In this document: one piece after another, positions 36,791-47,062 of the stretch
Layout of the letters: every line of letters starts with the position of its first letter
Position numbering within the stretch: position 1 is the stretch's first letter
DNA from: Candidatus Shapirobacteria bacterium
GTDB lineage: Bacteria > Patescibacteriota > Microgenomatia > UBA12405
Reading direction: 5' to 3'
Assembly (NCBI GenBank): GCA_041665485.1
Contig: JBAYIT010000001.1
Coordinates: 8,651-72,650, forward strand
Length of the DNA stretch: 64,000 nt
The notes under the pieces: model-generated
What the model was told of the DNA's origin: nothing
The model's input: only the letters and a program-made list of their open reading frames with translations
Databases searched by the model: none
Translations under genes and position numbers: made by a program

Positions 36791-38065
36791 ATGTCGAACA
36801 TCAAATCAATTTCAGCAAGGGAAATATTAAGTAGTGGTGGGGCGCCGACGGTTGAGGCAAAAGTAATTTTGGATTCGGGGGTGGAGGGAAAGGCGAGTGT
36901 GGCCTTTGGGGCGTCGGCGGGAAGCAGAGAGGCGGTGACTTTGGTGGATGGCGATGAAAAAAGATTTGGAGGAAAAGGAATGCTTTTGGCTGTTAAAAAT
37001 ATCGAAGAAAAAATTGGGCCAGCGCTGGCCGGAATGGAAGTGACGGAACAAGTGGCAATGGATAAAAAAATGCTGGAGTTGGATGGGACGGAACAAAAAT
37101 CAAATTTGGGGGGTAATGCGATTTTGGCGGTGTCGTTGGCGGTAGCCCGAGCGGGAGCTAAAGAGAATAATAATGAGCTGTATGAATACATAGGAAAAAT
37201 TTTTGAGATTAAAAGGGCAGTCAAACTGCCCAAGCCAATGGTGGTGATGATTGAAGGGGGAAAGCATGCTGACAAAACCACCGATTTACAGGAATATCTA
37301 GTCAGTGCTCTGGATGGTAGAACGGTGGCCGAAATGGTGCGGATGGAGATGGAGATTTATGGGGAGTTAAAAAAGATTTTGAAGGCAGAAGGACTGTCGG
37401 TAAATGTGGGGAACGAGGGGGCGTTTGCGCCGAGTGGAATAGACGGCAACGAAAAACCAATGGAATATTTGGTGAGAGCGATTGAGGCGGCGGGGTACCG
37501 GCCGGGAATTGATTGTGGAATAAGTTTGGATGCAGCGGCGAGTGAATTCGCCGAAGCGAATTCAGAGTTATCAGTTACGAATTACGAGTTACGAGTTGAG
37601 AATAAAAAATTAACCAGTGATGAGCTGATTGAGTATTATGGGCAGTGGATAGGAAAATATCCATTTGTAAGTTGGGAGGATATGTTGGATGAAAATGATT
37701 GGGAGGGGTGGGTGAAATTGACAGAAAAAATTGGAGGTAAATTTCCTAATATTGCCGATGATTTAACGGTGACGAATACTAAATTGTGGCAAAAGGCGCT
37801 GGAGATGAAGGCGGCCAGCGCGATCTTGGTTAAATTAAATCAGGCGGGGACGTTAACGGAAACAGTTGAATGTTGCAAATTAGCCAGAGAAAAAGGTTTG
37901 TGGACTGTCCCCTCTCACCGGGGAGGCGGGGAAACTAATGATACTTTTATGGTGGATTTGGCGGTGGCAGTGGGGGCGGAATATATTAAGTGCGGACCGA
38001 CGAGAGGAGAGAGAGTGGAGAAATATAATAGATTGATGGAAATAGAAGACAAATCTTCAATCTAG
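36791..38065 (+). CDS. eno: Enolase
   Basis: Full-length enolase signatures (SGASTG-like N-terminus, SHRSGETED-like SHRGGGETNDT, metal ligands). Confidence 0.95.
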   Translation: MSNIKSISAREILSSGGAPTVEAKVILDSGVEGKASVAFGASAGSREAVTLVDGDEKRFGGKGMLLAVKNIEEKIGPALAGMEVTEQVAMDKKMLELDGTEQKSNLGGNAILAVSLAVARAGAKENNNELYEYIGKIFEIKRAVKLPKPMVVMIEGGKHADKTTDLQEYLVSALDGRTVAEMVRMEMEIYGELKKILKAEGLSVNVGNEGAFAPSGIDGNEKPMEYLVRAIEAAGYRPGIDCGISLDAAASEFAEANSELSVTNYELRVENKKLTSDELIEYYGQWIGKYPFVSWEDMLDENDWEGWVKLTEKIGGKFPNIADDLTVTNTKLWQKALEMKAASAILVKLNQAGTLTETVECCKLAREKGLWTVPSHRGGGETNDTFMVDLAVAVGAEYIKCGPTRGERVEKYNRLMEIEDKSSI

Positions 38066-38081
38066 AATCTTCAAACTTCAA
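38051..38081. repeat. Left arm of inverted repeat flanking the four-helix-bundle gene (aatcttca x2 + acttcaa)
   Basis: Reverse-complementary to 38463-38491 (tgaagatt x2 + gaagttt). Read directly from sequence. Confidence 0.5.
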
Positions 38082-38096
38082 TTAAATTGAAACAAG

Positions 38097-38462
38097 ATGG
38101 AAGGAAATATTTTGAGGGATAAAAGTTATGCTTTTGCCTTGAAAGTAATCGGTGTATATCGATATTTGTCCTCAAATAAAAATGAGTTTGTCTTATCAAA
38201 GCAACTTTTACGGAGTGGAACGTCGATAGGAGCAAATATCGAAGAATCAATTGGAGGTTATAGTGAAAAGGATTTTAGTGCCAAGTTGAGCATTGCTTAC
38301 AAAGAAGCGAGAGAAACGCATTATTGGATTAGATTGCTAAAAGATACTAATTTATTGACGGAAAATCAGACAACCGAACTATTGGATAATTGTGATGAAT
38401 TAATAAGAATTACTGGTAAAATATTGTCGACAATGAGGAAAAAACAAAAATATCAGAAATGA
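38097..38462 (+). CDS. Four-helix-bundle protein (TIGR02436; '23S rRNA intervening-sequence protein' family)
   Basis: RSGTSIGANIEES and ETHYWIRLL hallmark motifs. 121 aa. Confidence 0.7.
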   Translation: MEGNILRDKSYAFALKVIGVYRYLSSNKNEFVLSKQLLRSGTSIGANIEESIGGYSEKDFSAKLSIAYKEARETHYWIRLLKDTNLLTENQTTELLDNCDELIRITGKILSTMRKKQKYQK

Positions 38463-38491
38463 TGAAGATTGTAGTTTGAAGATTGAAGTTT
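38463..38491. repeat. Right arm of inverted repeat flanking the four-helix-bundle gene
   Basis: See left arm 38051-38081. Confidence 0.5.
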
Positions 38492-39071
38492 AAATACTGT
38501 ATTCAAAATAACTGTCGTACGGGATTACCCAGGCGCAGGTTTCGTCGACGGTGGCGGATTCCATGATTTTTCGGAAAAGGCGGATAGAGTTGCCGTGGGC
38601 GGAGATGGCGACGTTAGTTCCTAGATTAGAGATCCTAGATTTTAGATCGTCGATGAAATTTTGGACACGGATTTCAACATCAGCAAAGGACTCACCACCC
38701 GGAGGTTTGTCGTTCCAACCACGATGCCACTTGTCGAATTGTTCTTGGCCATATTTGGCAATAGTGTCGGCATGAGTTTGGCCAGCAAGATCGCCGTAAG
38801 AGCGTTCAATAATCCGATCATCAATAATGATTTGCTGACATTCGGGATGATAAACCAAAACTTCCTTAAGGGTGTCTTGAGCGCGAGAAAGTCTTGAAGT
38901 AATGGCTAAATTTATTTTTTTGTCTTTGAGCATTAAACCTAAGGCTTTGGCTTGGTCAATACCGAGTGGAGTTAGCTTGGCGTCAAGCCAGCCGGTAAAG
39001 GTTTTGCTAAGATTAAATTCTGATTGGCCGTGGCGGAAAAGAAAGATGGTGGACATACTCAAGTTTACCAA
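38490..39071 (-). CDS. Histidine-phosphatase (phosphoglycerate mutase) family protein
   Basis: LFRHGQSEFN RHG catalytic motif. Adjacent to eno. Confidence 0.7.
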   Translation of the reverse strand: MVNLSMSTIFLFRHGQSEFNLSKTFTGWLDAKLTPLGIDQAKALGLMLKDKKINLAITSRLSRAQDTLKEVLVYHPECQQIIIDDRIIERSYGDLAGQTHADTIAKYGQEQFDKWHRGWNDKPPGGESFADVEIRVQNFIDDLKSRISNLGTNVAISAHGNSIRLFRKIMESATVDETCAWVIPYDSYFEYSI

Positions 39072-39087
39072 GTTATAAAGTTAAAAG

Positions 39088-39789
39088 TTACAAGTGGAGG
39101 TAGTGTTGACGCTGGGGTTCGGGGAGTTTTTCGATGGCGTAACGAAGAGCGGTGCGAGGCATAACGGGAGCGTGCTGATCAAGAAAAGTGGTTAGAGTTT
39201 TAAGGTCACGTTTGCCGACCTCGCGAAGCATCCAACCAACGGCTTTGTGGATAAGATCATGTTTATCTTTTAAAAGATTTTCGCTGATTTTGATCGTATC
39301 TTTAAGCTGATTTACGCGGATGAAGGCGAAGGTGGAAATAATGGCGATACGGCGATCCCAAACTAGTTTAGATTTGGCAAGTTTGTATAAAATATCTCTT
39401 GGTTTATCGAGCAAATAAACTCCAACTATCTTTCCGGCGGAGATATCAACTAAGTCCCAATTGTTAATGCGGGCAGTATTGGCAAGGTAAAAATCATAGA
39501 TCTGTTTTTGTTTTGGGGGGTCGGCCTTAGCAAACTGGCGAACCAAAAACATGATAGCTAAAGTGCGGAATTCGTGGACGGGGTGAATAAGAAGTTTTTT
39601 GATATCAATTAAATCTACTTTTTGCCAATATTTTTGCTCAATAGAGTGGGTTTGGGGGAGGGTTAGGCCGAAAAATTCGTCCCCTTCTCCGTATTGGCCC
39701 GGCCCGGTTTTAAAAAAACGTTTAAAGCGGTCGATTTTTTCAGGGTTCTTAAGGGCCTTTAAAGCGGATTCGATTTGGGAGAAAAACAT
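39088..39789 (-). CDS. DNA alkylation repair (AlkD/AlkC-like HEAT-repeat) protein
   Basis: Overall similarity to the PF08713 family (N-terminal KRFFKTGPGQYGEGDEFFGL). Confidence 0.5.
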   Translation of the reverse strand: MFFSQIESALKALKNPEKIDRFKRFFKTGPGQYGEGDEFFGLTLPQTHSIEQKYWQKVDLIDIKKLLIHPVHEFRTLAIMFLVRQFAKADPPKQKQIYDFYLANTARINNWDLVDISAGKIVGVYLLDKPRDILYKLAKSKLVWDRRIAIISTFAFIRVNQLKDTIKISENLLKDKHDLIHKAVGWMLREVGKRDLKTLTTFLDQHAPVMPRTALRYAIEKLPEPQRQHYLHL

Positions 39790-44276: not shown

Positions 44277-44364
44277 GGAAGGGTGCGCCGAATGGTAAGG
44301 CACAGGTTTGCTAAACCTGCGTCCCGCAAGGGGCATGAGGGTTCGACTCCCTCCCCTTCCGCCA
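44277..44364 (+). tRNA. tRNA-Ser (GCT), class II, CCA encoded
   Basis: Manual fold: acceptor GGAAGGG/CCCTTCC, anticodon stem CAGGT/ACCTG with loop TTGCTAA, long variable arm, T-arm GAGGG-TTCGACT-CCCTC, discriminator G, CCA. Confidence 0.9.
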
Positions 44365-44500
44365 AAGGGTCAAAGTTCTATGCGACCCACTTGGTAGTCA
44401 AGTATTGCCCCAACCTGTTGCCATATATTCGTCAAATACAACATTTTTCGATTTAACGGCCTGTAATAGGTAGTTTTGTTGTTTGTTGATATAATCCATT

Positions 44501-45001
44501 ATGTCCTATTTAATTGATATTTTAAAGATAATTTTCTCTTGGCCGTTTGTTGTTACTGTGATATTTCTTGTTTTAAAAAAAGACATCTCAAATATTTTGG
44601 GTAAGTCTAATTTAAGCGAAATTTCAATCAAAGATATGATTCGGATTATTTTTAGCGGTCAGTATCAAGCAAAAAAAGAGCCAGAAAAGAAAGATGAGTT
44701 GATGGAAAAGTTGTACGAAAAGATGACAAGAGCCCAATTAAGATTTTTATTTTTATTAAGAGAGTCTTCGTTTAAAGGTCGTGGTCTGGATTGTGGTTAC
44801 GTCAGCAACTACTTCCAACAAATAATTAAGTCCAAAACAGATCGATATGACGGATGGATAACCCCGTTTATTACCCAGTATCTACAAGAGAATCAATTAT
44901 TGTCAGTTTCTGATAACTATTACAAACTTGAAAAGTTAGGTGATGTATTTTTGAAATATATTGAAGATAAGGGATATTCTACTCAAGATAAACCTCTTTA
45001 A
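44501..45001 (+). CDS. Hypothetical protein with N-terminal TM
   Basis: ORF only. Confidence 0.4.
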   Translation: MSYLIDILKIIFSWPFVVTVIFLVLKKDISNILGKSNLSEISIKDMIRIIFSGQYQAKKEPEKKDELMEKLYEKMTRAQLRFLFLLRESSFKGRGLDCGYVSNYFQQIIKSKTDRYDGWITPFITQYLQENQLLSVSDNYYKLEKLGDVFLKYIEDKGYSTQDKPL

Positions 45002-46320
45002 CCGATTGCCAGTTGTTTGTTGTGGAGGATAAATTTAGTTTTTATTGCCGACATTATTTGAATTCTATCTTCGGCAGATCCGGCTTTTAAGACATGGAGT
45101 AAATACTCTTTGGCGGTATCCCGATCTAGCGGTATTTTTTGAGGGTAGTCGAATTGGTTAAGATTTCCAGCTAGAAATTCCTGATGGAGTACTTCGCCTC
45201 GAAGTGAATGGAATCTCTCGATTTCCTCTTTTAACTGATTGGTTAGTGCTTTTTCATCAAGTTTGATTTCATCTATGTGGCTAACTAATTGGTTTATTAA
45301 TTCTTCTTCGCTGATGTATGGCTCGTCGCAGTCGTAATCAACGTGGCGACCGCAGTGGTAGTAAACATATTTTTTGAATGATCCGTATTTGTATCGCTTG
45401 TATTTTTCTTCCGCCGTTATCCATTCTCCACAACTGCCACATTTACATAATCCACGGAACGGGAAGAGCTTTTTATTCCATTCTTTTGGTGGGACATAAA
45501 GTTGTTTTTGGGCCTTATCAAATATTGCTTTAGTAATTAATGGTTCGTGATTTCCTTTGTAGATAATTCCTCCAAATTCAAATTCACCGTAGTAATAAGT
45601 ATTTTTTAACGTTTTGTATACCTTGCTTAGGGCCAGCGGTTTTCCGCTTCTGGTCGTAAATCCAATTTTATCGAGCCACATTTTTATCGTTCTACCGCTT
45701 TGGCCTTTATTTGCCACCCGGTCAAATATTTGTTTAATTATCGGAGCTCGTTCTTTGTCGACCTCAACGTAACTGATTCGGTTATAGCTCATGACGTTGA
45801 GGTACCCAAGCGGGGCAATATTTGGCCTCCATCCGGCCTCACACTTAGCTTTCATGCCTCTTTTGACATTAATACCCCGATTATCGTTTTCCAGCTTGGC
45901 TTGAGAGCAGAGAATCATTAGCAAGAATTTTTCATTTGGGTTGTCGGAGAATGATTGAGAGAAGGTTCTTATTGTTTGAAGTTTTCCCTGATCCATGAGG
46001 TCAACTAGTGTTCCCAAGTCTCCGGCATTCCTGCTTAATCTGTCCGGTGCCCAGGTTAATATGGCATCAAATTCTCCGGCTCTGATATCGATCAGTAGTT
46101 GATTGAATACTGGCCTCAATCCTGATGATTTAGCAGAATGGCTTTCTTGTCGAATTTCTTTTATGAATAAATTTTCTCTTTCGGCCAGCGTCTTCATCTC
46201 ATTGATTTGAGACTCGATCGACATGGCTTGTCTCTCATCCGATTCTGATGACTTTCTGGCGTAAAGGCAATATCTTGTTTGTTTTATTTCCTGTGTCTTT
46301 CCATCTTCTTTGATCTTCAT
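44998..46320 (-). CDS. Large serine recombinase (resolvase catalytic domain + recombinase domain + zinc ribbon); start trimmed to MKIKEDGKT
   Basis: YARKSSESDERQAMSIESQ catalytic-serine region. C-terminal CxxC...C pattern typical of phage-type serine integrases. Confidence 0.85.
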   Translation of the reverse strand: MKIKEDGKTQEIKQTRYCLYARKSSESDERQAMSIESQINEMKTLAERENLFIKEIRQESHSAKSSGLRPVFNQLLIDIRAGEFDAILTWAPDRLSRNAGDLGTLVDLMDQGKLQTIRTFSQSFSDNPNEKFLLMILCSQAKLENDNRGINVKRGMKAKCEAGWRPNIAPLGYLNVMSYNRISYVEVDKERAPIIKQIFDRVANKGQSGRTIKMWLDKIGFTTRSGKPLALSKVYKTLKNTYYYGEFEFGGIIYKGNHEPLITKAIFDKAQKQLYVPPKEWNKKLFPFRGLCKCGSCGEWITAEEKYKRYKYGSFKKYVYYHCGRHVDYDCDEPYISEEELINQLVSHIDEIKLDEKALTNQLKEEIERFHSLRGEVLHQEFLAGNLNQFDYPQKIPLDRDTAKEYLLHVLKAGSAEDRIQIMSAIKTKFILHNKQLAIG

Positions 46321-46381
46321 GACACAACTGTACCGCAGGTTTTGTGGAAGTCTAGGAGATGAATTAGTGCTAAAATAGGGC

Positions 46382-47062
46382 ATGAAAGCTTTTGCTTTGT
46401 CCGTACTACTGGCTATTTCAAGTTTCTTCGGTATAAAAAATAAATCGCAGGTAGTTTTGGTCGAACCGATACCCACAGTTATTCAAAATCAAACCATAGT
46501 TCCGACAGAGGTAGTTGAGATACCCACACAAATAGTTACGCCAACAATTCGTGTAATACCTACCACTATTGCGCCAAAATCATCTATTAATGAGGATATT
46601 CTTAAAAAGTTTTTTGGGGTTTCGGATATTGACTCTGTGAATCAGGTTCTAAATAATAAGTCTCAATTACAAAAATATGAGCAGGAATTTTATCAAAAGT
46701 TTTTAACTTCTCCGATTCCAAGAGTTACAATTTCAAGCAATACTCAACTTATTGCTATGCCGGGAATGAATGGAATGGTTATCTGCACTGGAAGTCAATT
46801 AAAAAAGCTTTATGAAGAAATCGGCCCTATCGAAAGTCAAATATATTTTGAAAAAATGGATTATGACTGTCATCATAACCCCAAAGTGCAAGAAACCAAG
46901 GAATGCCAAGACTGGAGAAAAATAAACGACGCTAACAGGGTCCAGCCCACCAAAGGATCAATTGATGACGAAATTTCAGCCCTACAAAAAAAGATAAACG
47001 AATATGCCAATAAAAAGAATGTTTATGATGATCTTTTAGTTAAATACTGCCCAAAGAAATGA
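46382..47062 (+). CDS. Hypothetical secreted protein
   Basis: ORF with N-terminal hydrophobic segment. Confidence 0.35.
   Translation: MKAFALSVLLAISSFFGIKNKSQVVLVEPIPTVIQNQTIVPTEVVEIPTQIVTPTIRVIPTTIAPKSSINEDILKKFFGVSDIDSVNQVLNNKSQLQKYEQEFYQKFLTSPIPRVTISSNTQLIAMPGMNGMVICTGSQLKKLYEEIGPIESQIYFEKMDYDCHHNPKVQETKECQDWRKINDANRVQPTKGSIDDEISALQKKINEYANKKNVYDDLLVKYCPKK

What the first reader, a model, noticed from the sequence alone, without database searches (positions are those of the whole stretch)
38051..38491. Four-helix-bundle 'rRNA-IVS protein' gene inserted between eno and a PGAM gene, bracketed by ~30-bp inverted repeats
The 121-aa gene carries the TIGR02436 hallmarks (SGTSIGANIEES, ETHYWIRLL). 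It is flanked immediately outside its start and stop by reverse-complementary repeats: aatcttca x2 + acttcaa at 38051-38081, and tgaagatt x2 + gaagttt at 38463-38491. In rRNA intervening sequences, such terminal inverted repeats form the stem that is excised. Here the same architecture sits in a protein-coding intergenic region, suggesting a mobile or RNA-processed cassette. The left repeat overlaps the enolase stop codon.
Basis: seen in the sequence. Interest (0 to 1): 0.55.

Follow-up and report, generated by a model that had tools for sequence, protein, structure and literature searches.

The report
IVS-type gene cassette outside ribosomal RNA
A small, well-conserved gene of unknown function sits between two glycolysis genes, bracketed by mirror-image runs of a 7-base repeat. 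This is the layout known from the "intervening sequences" cut out of ribosomal RNA, and I found it around about two-thirds of this gene's relatives sampled from many bacterial phyla.

Summary
A 121-aa PF05635/TIGR02436 four-helix-bundle gene (38097-38462) lies between convergent eno and a dPGM-like gene. It is bracketed by inverted arms at 38052-38080 and 38463-38491. The 22-nt core is 91% complementary, the predicted pairing probability is about 1, and duplex dG is -28.5 kcal/mol.

The cassette is an insertion: relative L101 has the empty site, with the eno and dPGM stop codons overlapping. It is not a recent one. Five further lineages, all from Shapirobacteria or unnamed close relatives, carry the orthologous gene at the same site with the same heptamer arrays. 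Synonymous sites are saturated, and dN/dS is 0.04-0.06 where measurable.

The architecture is family-wide. About 53 of 78 PF05635 genes sampled from many phyla, and 4 of 4 on cyanobacterial plasmids, have inverted heptamer arrays hugging the ORF. None of the 78 is in rRNA. The upstream gene is co-oriented in 47 of 49 cases, and the left array overlaps its stop codon. The Coxiella 23S IVS has the same features.

Best reading: a promoter-less cassette transcribed from eno, whose arms form a dsRNA stem that is processed, probably by RNase III. The processing and the protein's role are inferred.

The parts
36791..38065 (+). Enolase gene (424 aa), the host gene immediately upstream and co-oriented. 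Its last four codons and its stop codon (TAG, 38063-38065) lie inside the left heptamer array.
   Evidence: Pfam Enolase_N and Enolase_C, E 8e-48 and 3e-78. ORF list. Sequence.
38052..38081 (+). Left arm: a tandem array of about four 7-nt units (AATCTTC AATCTAG AATCTTC AAACTTC AA).
   Evidence: direct repeat D7, inverted repeats I1-I3. Unit count. Pairs with the right arm at P about 1.
38082..38096 (+). 15-nt leader between the left arm and the ATG (TTAAATTGAAACAAG). No promoter-like site and no obvious Shine-Dalgarno sequence.
   Evidence: Sequence. Promoter/terminator scan found no site here.
38097..38462 (+). PF05635 / TIGR02436 four-helix-bundle protein gene (121 aa; S23p / IVS-protein / Avd-like).
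   Evidence: Pfam E 2.8e-27. TIGR02436 E 7.4e-30. PDB 2RLD E 4e-26. AF2 model pLDDT 95 with four helices. Foldseek: 2RLD TM 0.86-0.96, 2GSC, and Avd 4DWL/8UBE TM 0.7-0.8. dN/dS 0.04-0.06 among orthologs.
38463..38491 (+). Right arm: a tandem array of the complementary unit (TGAAGAT TGTAGTT TGAAGAT TGAAGTT T). It starts at the base after the ORF's TGA and overlaps the His_Phos_1 stop codon.
   Evidence: D4, I1-I3. TRF period 7/14, score 51.
38490..39056 (-). His_Phos_1 / dPGM-like phosphoglycerate mutase gene (188 aa as called on the source contig), convergent with eno. It is the downstream neighbour abutting the right arm.
   Evidence: Pfam His_Phos_1 E 5.6e-38. TIGR01258 pgm_1 scores 107.9 bits against a cut-off of 81.7. 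Gene call in L001.
37557..37618 (+). Heptamer-periodic stretch inside the eno coding sequence, in a variable surface loop (...ANSELSVTNYELRVEN...). Units are GAGTTAC and GAATTAC. Possibly related to the cassette arrays.
   Evidence: TRF period 7/21. Sequence. The loop is heptamer-periodic only in cassette-bearing relatives. In L004 the loop is 37/38 identical to the left arm of L011.
38614..38648 (-). AATCTAG-like 14-nt x 2.5 array inside the His_Phos_1 coding sequence. It is partly complementary (70-76%) to the left arm on the + strand.
   Evidence: D6, I4, I5.. Found in the window lineage only.

Best explanation
This is an IVS-type cassette: a promoter-less, purifying-selected PF05635 four-helix-bundle gene enclosed by inverted arrays of a 7-nt repeat. 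It is wedged exactly between the stop codons of eno and a convergent dPGM-like gene.

Shown here:
1. The arms are real, highly non-random and predicted to pair.
2. The site is empty in one relative, and other genes occupy it in other relatives.
3. The gene and the AATCTTC/GAAGATT arrays are conserved together at this site in six lineages, although synonymous sites are saturated. Both gene and arrays are therefore maintained.
4. The same layout surrounds about two-thirds of sampled family members in many phyla, none of them in rRNA. The upstream gene is almost always co-oriented, the left array overlaps its stop codon, and the right array starts at the ORF's own stop codon.

Inferred mechanism:
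1. The cassette is transcribed by read-through from eno.
2. In that transcript the arms form a 22-29 bp duplex that encloses the ORF.
3. A dsRNA endonuclease (RNase III, as shown for the S23p-bearing Coxiella 23S IVS) cuts the stem.
4. This separates the cassette RNA from the eno mRNA and sets how much PF05635 mRNA survives and is translated.

Because the arms are tandem heptamers, they can pair in several registers and tolerate copy-number slippage. rRNA IVSs would then be the special case in which such a cassette landed in an rRNA helix.

The protein is a homologue of the RNA-stem-binding Avd pentamer. It plausibly binds this stem or the heptamer arrays. That step is speculation.
For: - Arms and fold.
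- No own promoter or terminator found. No rRNA in the window.
- Empty site in L101, where the eno and His_Phos stop codons overlap. Unrelated ORFs occupy the site in L095, L097, L096 and L099.
- Syntenic orthologs with AATCTTC-type arrays in L175, L176, L177/178, L011 and L003-L010. Their duplex dG is -31 to -55 kcal/mol.
- pS is 0.69-0.85 and dN/dS 0.04-0.06.
- Array copy number differs between near-identical contigs L003, L004 and L005.
- Family-wide survey: IR score >=14 in about 53 of 78 loci, against about 2% of control ORFs.
- Lag 7 or 14 is the best self-similarity lag in 109 of 155 flanks, against 69 of 402 control flanks (p = 1e-38). No rRNA probe hits.
- The upstream neighbour is co-oriented 47:2, and the gap between its stop codon and the array is mostly -27 to +29 nt. 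The right array begins -3 to 0 nt from the ORF stop in most loci.
- Cassette length is 383-658 bp, median 462.
- Cyanobacterial plasmid copies also carry inverted heptamer arrays.
- Literature: the Coxiella IVS (428 nt) has an S23p ORF in sense orientation, an inverted-repeat stem cut by RNase III at the first of 2-3 strain-variable GACAGAT heptamers (PMC4990558). The Avd pentamer binds an RNA stem-loop with all five protomers (bioRxiv 10.1101/2023.10.23.563531).
Against: - There is no transcript or cleavage data for this organism, and no RNase III gene in the 64-kb window.
- Arm mismatches show no strand-specific wobble signature: 47 G.U-type, 53 A.C-type and 159 transversions. Complementarity could therefore be kept at the DNA level or by inter-arm conversion.
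- Roughly 30% of family members lack detectable arms, for example L012-L014.
- One Nostoc copy has the arms in everted orientation.
- Arrays of the same unit occur without the gene, in viral contigs and at extra sites near cassettes (47 sites against 2.2 expected).
- In Coxiella the authors concluded that S23p is probably not translated. The strong purifying selection seen here does not fit that.
Confidence: 0.55

Rival explanations
1. DNA-level mobile element. The inverted heptamer arrays are terminal inverted repeats recognised by a recombinase or transposase supplied in trans, or they drive hairpin-mediated insertion and excision. The PF05635 gene is cargo or an accessory factor. RNA pairing is incidental.
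For: - Patchy presence. Cassette-bearing lineages are paraphyletic on the eno tree, and each has a cassette-less sister (100% bootstrap for window+L095 and for L011+L102).
- Empty site in L101.
- Near relatives of the protein (50-66% identity) in many phyla at unrelated loci.
- Extra arrays of the same unit near cassettes.
- A copy of arm sequence inside the eno coding loop.
- A tandem [PF05635-His_Phos] duplication bounded by arrays in L003.
- No G.U bias in the arms.
Against: - No transposase or integrase in or next to the cassette.
- No direct target-site duplication. The TAA/TTA at the junctions is part of the inverted repeat.
- Single copy in 64 kb.
- Same site, same heptamer and saturated synonymous divergence in six lineages. 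This means long vertical residence.
- A pure DNA transposon would not be expected to show a 47:2 orientation bias, unless expression of the ORF is required.
Confidence: 0.2
2. Cognate binding sites. The heptamer arrays, as RNA stem, ssRNA or DNA, are the binding sites of the PF05635 pentamer itself. The result would be autoregulation, or a trans-acting role on dispersed heptamer arrays of the genome. This can coexist with RNase III processing.
For: - The gene-array association is strong and specific across phyla.
- Arrays of the same unit are enriched nearby (47 sites against 2.2 expected).
- In L087 every intergenic gap of a pilus operon carries the same unit.
- The structural homologue Avd binds an RNA stem-loop through all five protomers, with flipped-out bases (fold match).
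- Arrays typically hold 3-8 units, of the order of a pentamer footprint.
Against: - The unit sequence differs widely (AATCTTC, AATTACG, GGTCGGA, ACCAGTG, GACAGAT) among proteins that are 35-70% identical. The window protein is closest to AATTACG-flanked proteins outside its own clade.
- One group (Shapirobacteria MAGs) holds both AATCTTC and AATTACG cassettes (L056).
- Arrays occur in viral contigs with no PF05635 gene nearby.
Confidence: 0.3
3. Chance low-complexity sequence or an ordinary AT-rich intergenic simple-sequence repeat. The symmetry has no functional meaning.
For: - Heptanucleotide repeats are a common class of bacterial SSR (PMC4679880).
- The window has other short AT-rich arrays.
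Against: - z = 11 against shuffles.
- Control ORF flanks show no lag-7 enrichment: 17%, which is the random expectation.
- Conservation across saturated divergence.
- The pattern recurs in about two-thirds of sampled family members.
Confidence: 0.01
4. The gene is the Avd accessory protein of a diversity-generating retroelement.
For: Same fold superfamily as Avd (4DWL, 8UBE; TM 0.7-0.8). PF05635 is the Pfam family that resembles Avd (PMC10053308).
Against: - No reverse transcriptase among the called genes within 10 kb on either side.
- The sequence match is to the S23p branch (2RLD, 43% identity), not to Avd (12-15% identity).
Confidence: 0.01

Closest known systems
ORF-bearing intervening sequences (IVS) of 23S/16S rRNA, known from Leptospira, Coxiella burnetii and CPR bacteria
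   Same: - Same protein family (S23p / PF05635).
- Similar size: 440 bp here, 428-444 nt in Coxiella.
- The ORF is in sense orientation relative to the host transcript.
- Terminal inverted repeats enclose the ORF.
- Tandem heptamers with strain-variable copy number lie at the arm next to the ORF.
   Different: - The host is not an rRNA helix but the gap between the stop codons of two protein-coding genes.
- The heptamer unit differs (AATCTTC here, GACAGAT in Coxiella).
- The protein is under strong purifying selection here, whereas the Coxiella ORF is described as decaying and probably untranslated.
- RNase III excision has not been shown here.
Free-standing 'four helix bundle protein' genes (TIGR02436; for example BT_0352, PDB 2RLD; XCC0516, PDB 2GSC)
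   Same: The sequence and predicted fold are those of this family. Thousands of such genes are annotated outside rRNA.
   Different: In the literature I could search, these genes are treated as isolated hypothetical genes. I found no description of flanking inverted heptamer arrays, or of the insertion rule of abutting the stop codon of a co-oriented gene.
Intergenic heptanucleotide tandem repeats: cyanobacterial STRR, and TAACTGA repeats of Beggiatoaceae, Cyanobacteria and Bacteroidetes
   Same: - Tandem 7-nt units.
- Intergenic, often ending just upstream of a start codon.
- Variable copy number and patchy phylogenetic distribution.
- Cyanobacterial plasmid PF05635 genes are flanked by such arrays.
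   Different: - Those repeats are described as direct arrays with no associated gene. Only one inverted case is reported in the Beggiatoa genome.
- Here two arrays in inverted orientation bracket one specific gene family.
Avd of diversity-generating retroelements
   Same: Four-helix-bundle fold. Pentamers are known for the homologues. Avd binds an RNA stem-loop encoded next to its own gene, and the 3' end of the avd coding region pairs with downstream RNA.
   Different: No reverse transcriptase or TR/VR here. Only 12-15% identity to Avd.
MITE / REP-like palindromic elements, including Rickettsia palindromic elements that insert in frame into genes
   Same: - Inverted termini and intergenic location.
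- ORF-less hairpin versions exist, for example L087 positions 1397-1519.
- Array sequence is found in frame inside the eno coding loop.
   Different: - The termini are tandem heptamer arrays of variable length, not a fixed terminal inverted repeat.
- No target-site duplication and no cognate transposase identified.
- Single copy in this window.

Membership tests
PF05635 / TIGR02436 four-helix-bundle (S23p, 'rRNA IVS protein') family | HMM score above the curated cut-off | tested here: met
   PF05635 scores 95.5 bits against a cut-off of 33.8. TIGR02436 scores 103.4 bits against 24.
PF05635 / TIGR02436 four-helix-bundle (S23p, 'rRNA IVS protein') family | Four-helix-bundle fold matching solved family members | tested here: met
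   AF2 model has pLDDT 95.4 and four helices. Foldseek gives 2RLD at TM 0.86-0.96 and rmsd 0.7 A, and 2GSC at TM about 0.8. Pentamer assembly was not tested.
rRNA intervening sequence (IVS) element | Located within a helix of a 23S or 16S rRNA gene | tested here: not met
   Rfam finds no rRNA in the window. The cassette lies between eno and a dPGM-like gene.
rRNA intervening sequence (IVS) element | Terminal inverted repeats that form a stem enclosing the ORF | tested here: met
   (P about 1, dG -28.5 kcal/mol).
rRNA intervening sequence (IVS) element | ORF in sense orientation within the host transcript, with no promoter of its own | tested here: met
   Co-oriented with eno, 31 nt after its stop codon. 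No promoter-like site between them. Family-wide co-orientation is 47:2. Actual co-transcription was not measured.
rRNA intervening sequence (IVS) element | Excision from the precursor by RNase III | not testable with these tools
   No expression data. No rnc gene in the window.
rRNA intervening sequence (IVS) element | Tandem heptamers of variable copy number at the arm next to the S23p ORF (Coxiella) | tested here: met
   Period-7 arrays. Copy number differs among L003, L004 and L005. Literature.
Diversity-generating retroelement (Avd accessory gene) | Adjacent reverse transcriptase gene and TR/VR repeat pair | tested here: not met
   No RVT family among the called genes within 10 kb on either side.
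Transposable element / MITE | Direct target-site duplication flanking the terminal inverted repeats | tested here: not met
   The junctions read TAA|array ... array|TTA. This is an inverted, not a direct, duplication and is part of the inverted repeat. The empty site in L101 is TCTTAAAT.
Transposable element / MITE | Multiple dispersed copies and/or a cognate transposase | tested here: not met
   The arm motif occurs only at the cassette in 64 kb. No transposase is adjacent. The rest of the genome was not searched.
Heptanucleotide tandem repeats (STRR-like SSR) | Tandem 7-nt units, intergenic, with variable copy number | tested here: met
Integron gene cassette | Single attC at the 3' end, within an array next to an integrase | tested here: not met
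   There are two arms, one on each side of the ORF. No integrase or cassette array is present.

The most novel reading that the evidence does not exclude
PF05635 genes bracketed by inverted heptanucleotide arrays form a ubiquitous, so far undescribed class of transcript-embedded cassette. Such a cassette lodges at the stop codon of a co-oriented host gene, or in an rRNA helix or after a tRNA. On this reading, ORF-bearing rRNA IVSs and at least part of the enigmatic bacterial and cyanobacterial heptamer repeats (STRR-like) are facets of one system. The Avd-like pentamer would act on the heptamer stem or arrays by binding, protecting, propagating or mobilising them. The copies of arm sequence inside the eno coding loop would be footprints of that activity.
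Probability: 0.3. Interest if true: 0.85.

Novelty: new variant of a known kind. Interest (0 to 1): 0.68.

Why it matters
PF05635/TIGR02436 is a very large family: my search returned its ceiling of 8000 scored hits at E <= 1e-3. Its only characterised relative is the DGR accessory protein Avd. The non-DGR members have had no function since the Leptospira IVS ORF was described in 1993.

The survey here shows three things. The gene comes as a unit with inverted heptamer arrays. The unit sits at a stereotyped position, at the stop codon of a co-oriented gene. The unit is kept under selection long after insertion. Together these turn an annotation dead end into testable hypotheses:
- RNase III processing of mRNA-embedded 'IVSs';
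- binding of the pentamer to the heptamer stem;
- a link to the unexplained heptanucleotide repeats of cyanobacteria, Bacteroidota and others.

It also gives a simple explanation for rRNA IVSs. They would be the subset of these cassettes that landed where a stem extension is tolerated.

There is a practical point as well. PF05635 genes found inside cas operons or other systems may be inserted cassettes rather than functional partners.

Tried and rejected
- Motif copies: searching the 64-kb window for other copies of the arm motif found only the cassette.
- Known RNA families: Rfam at gathering threshold on the window, and at E <= 1 on 37800-38800, found no family at the cassette.
- Promoter/terminator scan: no site between eno and the ORF, and no intrinsic terminator.
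- Defence systems: PADLOC gave no meaningful hit.
- RNase III: a signature-motif search of the window found none, so I cannot say whether the genome encodes the enzyme.
- Strand test on arm mismatches (G.U vs A.C): 47 vs 53. This is uninformative or slightly against sense-strand RNA selection.
- Reverse association test: starting from (AATCTTC)x3 in IMG/VR gave 15 contigs, none with a PF05635 gene nearby. Arrays therefore do not imply the gene.
- Eno tree: only four clades have meaningful bootstrap support. The basal support values from my script are unreliable (0-40) and I did not use them.
- Within-genome comparison of two cassettes (L068 vs L077) failed, because the L068 frame contains stop codons. 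L068 is possibly a pseudogene. Not pursued.
- Literature: five of the six searches looked for a paper linking PF05635 to flanking heptamer inverted repeats. They found only the Coxiella IVS paper. Absence from that library is not proof of novelty.
Full report
**1. The observation**

- eno (36791-38065, + strand) is followed after 31 nt by a 121-aa ORF (38097-38462, + strand).
- That ORF is followed by a convergent His_Phos_1 / dPGM-like gene (38490-39056, - strand).
- The ORF is a clear PF05635 / TIGR02436 member: E 2.8e-27 and 7.4e-30.
- An AlphaFold model (pLDDT 95.4) is a four-helix bundle. It superposes on BT_0352 (PDB 2RLD; TM 0.86-0.96), on XCC0516 (2GSC), and more distantly on the DGR protein Avd (4DWL, 8UBE).

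The inverted repeat is real.
- Arms lie at 38052-38080 and 38463-38491 (29 nt, 79% complementary), with a 22-nt core that is 91% complementary.
- It is far beyond chance. The z-score is 11 against shuffled flanks. The IR score is 17, against a median of 8 and a 95th percentile of 11 for 323 control ORFs.
- The MFE and centroid folds of 38030-38510 pair the arms. Core pairing probability is about 1, and the arm-arm duplex dG is -28.5 kcal/mol against -12 +/- 3 for shuffles.
- The eno stop codon (TAG, 38063-38065) is inside the left arm. The dPGM stop codon (38490-38492) overlaps the end of the right arm.

**2. Origin and age of the cassette**

The window is from a Candidatus Shapirobacteria (CPR) metagenome-assembled genome.

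The best database relatives of the protein whose contigs I read (70-74% identity, plus P0028 at 67%) all sit in the same eno-X-dPGM position. These are P0002, P0003, P0004, P0006 and P0028, on loci L175, L011, L176, L177-L180 and L003-L010. P0028 is named as Shapirobacteria; the others come from unnamed metagenome or MAG records and are close relatives by sequence.

Every one of them carries AATCTTC-type arrays on both sides, starting at the two stop codons. Their predicted duplex dG is -31 to -55 kcal/mol. L011 has a 38-nt arm pair that is 97% complementary.

Between these orthologs the synonymous sites are saturated (pS 0.69-0.85), and dN/dS is 0.04-0.06 where it can be measured. So the protein is translated and constrained. 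The arrays have persisted over a divergence that would have erased neutral intergenic sequence. Copy number of the unit differs between nearly identical contigs L003, L004 and L005, so the arrays also slip.

A metagenome scan with the enolase found cassette-less relatives.
- In L101 the stop codons of eno and the orthologous dPGM gene overlap (TCTTAAAT). This is an empty site.
- In L095, the well-supported sister of the window lineage, an unrelated 125-aa ORF fills the gap.
- L097, L096 and L099 have other genes there.

On the enolase tree, cassette-bearing lineages are paraphyletic. The window pairs with L095 and L011 pairs with L102, each at 100% bootstrap. The simplest history is one old insertion followed by repeated loss or replacement. 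Repeated site-specific gain is not excluded.

The motif occurs nowhere else in the 64-kb window. There is no transposase, integrase or reverse transcriptase nearby.

**3. The layout is a property of the gene family**

I fetched 80 loci encoding relatives (50-66% identity) from one genome per species. They span Bacteroidota, Verrucomicrobiota, Planctomycetota, Pseudomonadota, Ignavibacteriota, Chloroflexota, Bacillota, Acidobacteriota, CPR and others.
- About 53 of the 78 usable genes have a significant inverted repeat between their flanks (score >= 14). Only about 2% of neighbouring ORFs do, and several of those outliers are themselves cassettes.
- The arms are period-7 arrays. Lag 7 or 14 is the best self-similarity lag in 109 of 155 flanks, against 69 of 402 control flanks, which is the random expectation (Mann-Whitney p = 1e-38).
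- None of the 78 loci contains rRNA probe sequences.
- The commonest units are AATTACG, AATTAAG and AATTAGG. Others include ACAGATG, AATGAGT and AGGTGAT. The Shapirobacteria eno locus has AATCTTC.
- Cassette length is 383-658 bp, median 462.

The position is stereotyped.
- The upstream neighbour is co-oriented in 47 of 49 cases.
- The left array usually overlaps or abuts that gene's stop codon. The gap is -27 to +29 nt in 42 of those 49.
- The right array begins -3 to 0 nt from the PF05635 stop codon in most loci.
- The next gene, on either strand (28:16), abuts the right array.

More distant copies on cyanobacterial plasmids (34-51% identity) show the same thing with other units: GGTCGGA in Nostoc punctiforme, ACCAGTG/ACTGGTC in Euhalothece, and a perfect 35-nt AATTCGT/AATTACG pair in Nostoc flagelliforme.

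About 30% of genes lack detectable arms, for example L012-L014.

**4. Link to what is known**

The Coxiella burnetii 23S IVS is 428 nt long.
- It carries an S23p (PF05635) ORF in sense orientation.
- It is excised by RNase III in a stem formed by inverted repeats.
- It has two or three strain-variable tandem heptamers (GACAGAT) upstream of the ORF, with the RNase III site at the first repeat (PMC4990558).
- CPR rRNA insertions also sometimes encode this domain (PMC11270868).

The window cassette has every one of these features except the rRNA host.

Intergenic heptanucleotide direct repeats have been described in Beggiatoaceae, cyanobacteria and Bacteroidetes, with no link to this gene (PMC4679880).

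The characterised homologue Avd is a pentamer. It grips an RNA stem-loop encoded next to its own gene with all five protomers.

In five of my six full-text searches I looked for a paper that connects PF05635 genes outside rRNA with flanking inverted heptamer arrays, or with the insertion rule above, and found none. This is a limited library, so novelty is probable but not proven.

**5. Mechanism**

Best supported (confidence about 0.55):
1. The cassette has no promoter and is read through from eno.
2. In that transcript the arms form a 22-29 bp duplex enclosing the ORF.
3. A dsRNA endonuclease of the RNase III type cuts the stem, as in rRNA IVSs.
4. This uncouples the cassette RNA from the host message and sets its stability and translation.

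Arms made of tandem units can pair in many registers and survive slippage.

The shown steps are the anatomy, the conservation, the orientation rule and the predicted pairing. The inferred steps are co-transcription, cleavage and its consequences.

Evidence against or neutral:
- Arm mismatches show no excess of G.U over A.C: 47 against 53, with 159 transversions. Complementarity may therefore be kept at the DNA level or by conversion between arms.
- One Nostoc copy has everted arms.
- Arrays exist without the gene.

Rivals:
- A DNA-level mobile element using the arrays as termini (0.2).
- Arrays as binding sites of the PF05635 pentamer (0.3, compatible with the main model).
- Chance, and DGR membership. 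Both are rejected.

**6. Verdict**

What is there is an old, selectively maintained, IVS-type cassette in a protein-coding context. It is not a recently mobile element.

Filed as a member of PF05635/TIGR02436. It works like an rRNA IVS but is not one, because the defining rRNA location is not met.

The family-wide rule uncovered on the way is the more interesting result. It makes the long-standing question of what these proteins and the heptamer repeats do directly testable.

Noticed in passing
window 37557-37618; L004 3369-3404; L177 752-778; L011 eno loop: The variable surface loop of enolase (between DAAASEF and Y-x-L-x-V-E) is encoded by heptamer-periodic DNA in all cassette-bearing lineages (lag-7 identity 0.48-0.53). 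In cassette-less relatives it is 0.29-0.46, mostly about 0.34. In L004 the 38-nt loop sequence is 37/38 identical to the left arm of the cassette in L011. Arm sequence appears to have been copied in frame into the coding region about 500 bp upstream.
   Followed up: partly
window 38614-38648 (inside the His_Phos_1 gene) and 39057-39095 (upstream of its start): There are two further short period-7/14 arrays related to the arm units: AATCTAG-like on the gene's sense strand, and AAGTTNN x about 4. The first is 70-76% complementary to the left arm. It is found only in the window lineage.
   Followed up: partly
L003 4001-6174; L004 4972-5019: In the P0028 lineage the unit [PF05635 gene - dPGM gene] is tandemly duplicated, with AATCTTC arrays at every junction. 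Contigs L003 and L004 end inside arrays. This is either array-mediated duplication or an assembly loop through the repeats.
   Followed up: no
L087 1-3000 (Eubacterium limosum MAG, type IV pilus operon): Arrays of one heptamer (GATAGTT / AACTATC) occupy every intergenic gap of the operon in alternating orientation. One pair forms an ORF-less hairpin (1397-1519), and another pair encloses the PF05635 gene.
   Followed up: partly
L026 700-3300 (Opitutales MAG): The cassette follows a tRNA-like sequence. There are eight additional AATTAGG arrays with GGCGCC clamps within 2.5 kb, plus a fragment of a second, different PF05635-like ORF.
   Followed up: no
L182 (Anabaena cylindrica PCC 7122 plasmid pANACY.01, 155585-155932): A PF05635 gene sits between cas2 and cas1, flanked by GTAAAAA-type arrays. 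Reported 'CRISPR association' of this domain may reflect cassette insertion rather than function.
   Followed up: no
L184 (Nostoc flagelliforme plasmid pNFSY06): A perfect 35-nt arm pair in the opposite ('everted') polarity, with CGTAATT-type upstream and AATTACG downstream. This is an exception to the usual orientation.
   Followed up: no
L101 3755-3775: The empty site reads CTT AAA TCT TAA ATTTCG. The native 3' end of eno (AAATCTTAA) already resembles one AATCTTC unit. Either the unit was seeded from the target, or this is a scar of cassette loss.
   Followed up: no
L185-L199 (IMG/VR contigs): (AATCTTC)x3 or longer arrays occur in 15 viral contigs, mostly intergenic and just upstream of genes, with no PF05635 gene nearby.
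   Followed up: partly
window 44277-46476: tRNA-Ser (44277-44364) is followed by a large serine recombinase ORF (Resolvase / Recombinase / Zn_ribbon_recom, - strand) and several ORFs without family matches. This may be an integrated element about 6 kb from the cassette.
   Followed up: no
L068 2501-2860: The PF05635 reading frame in this Ignavibacteria locus contains two stop codons although the arms are intact. It is possibly a decaying cassette.
   Followed up: no
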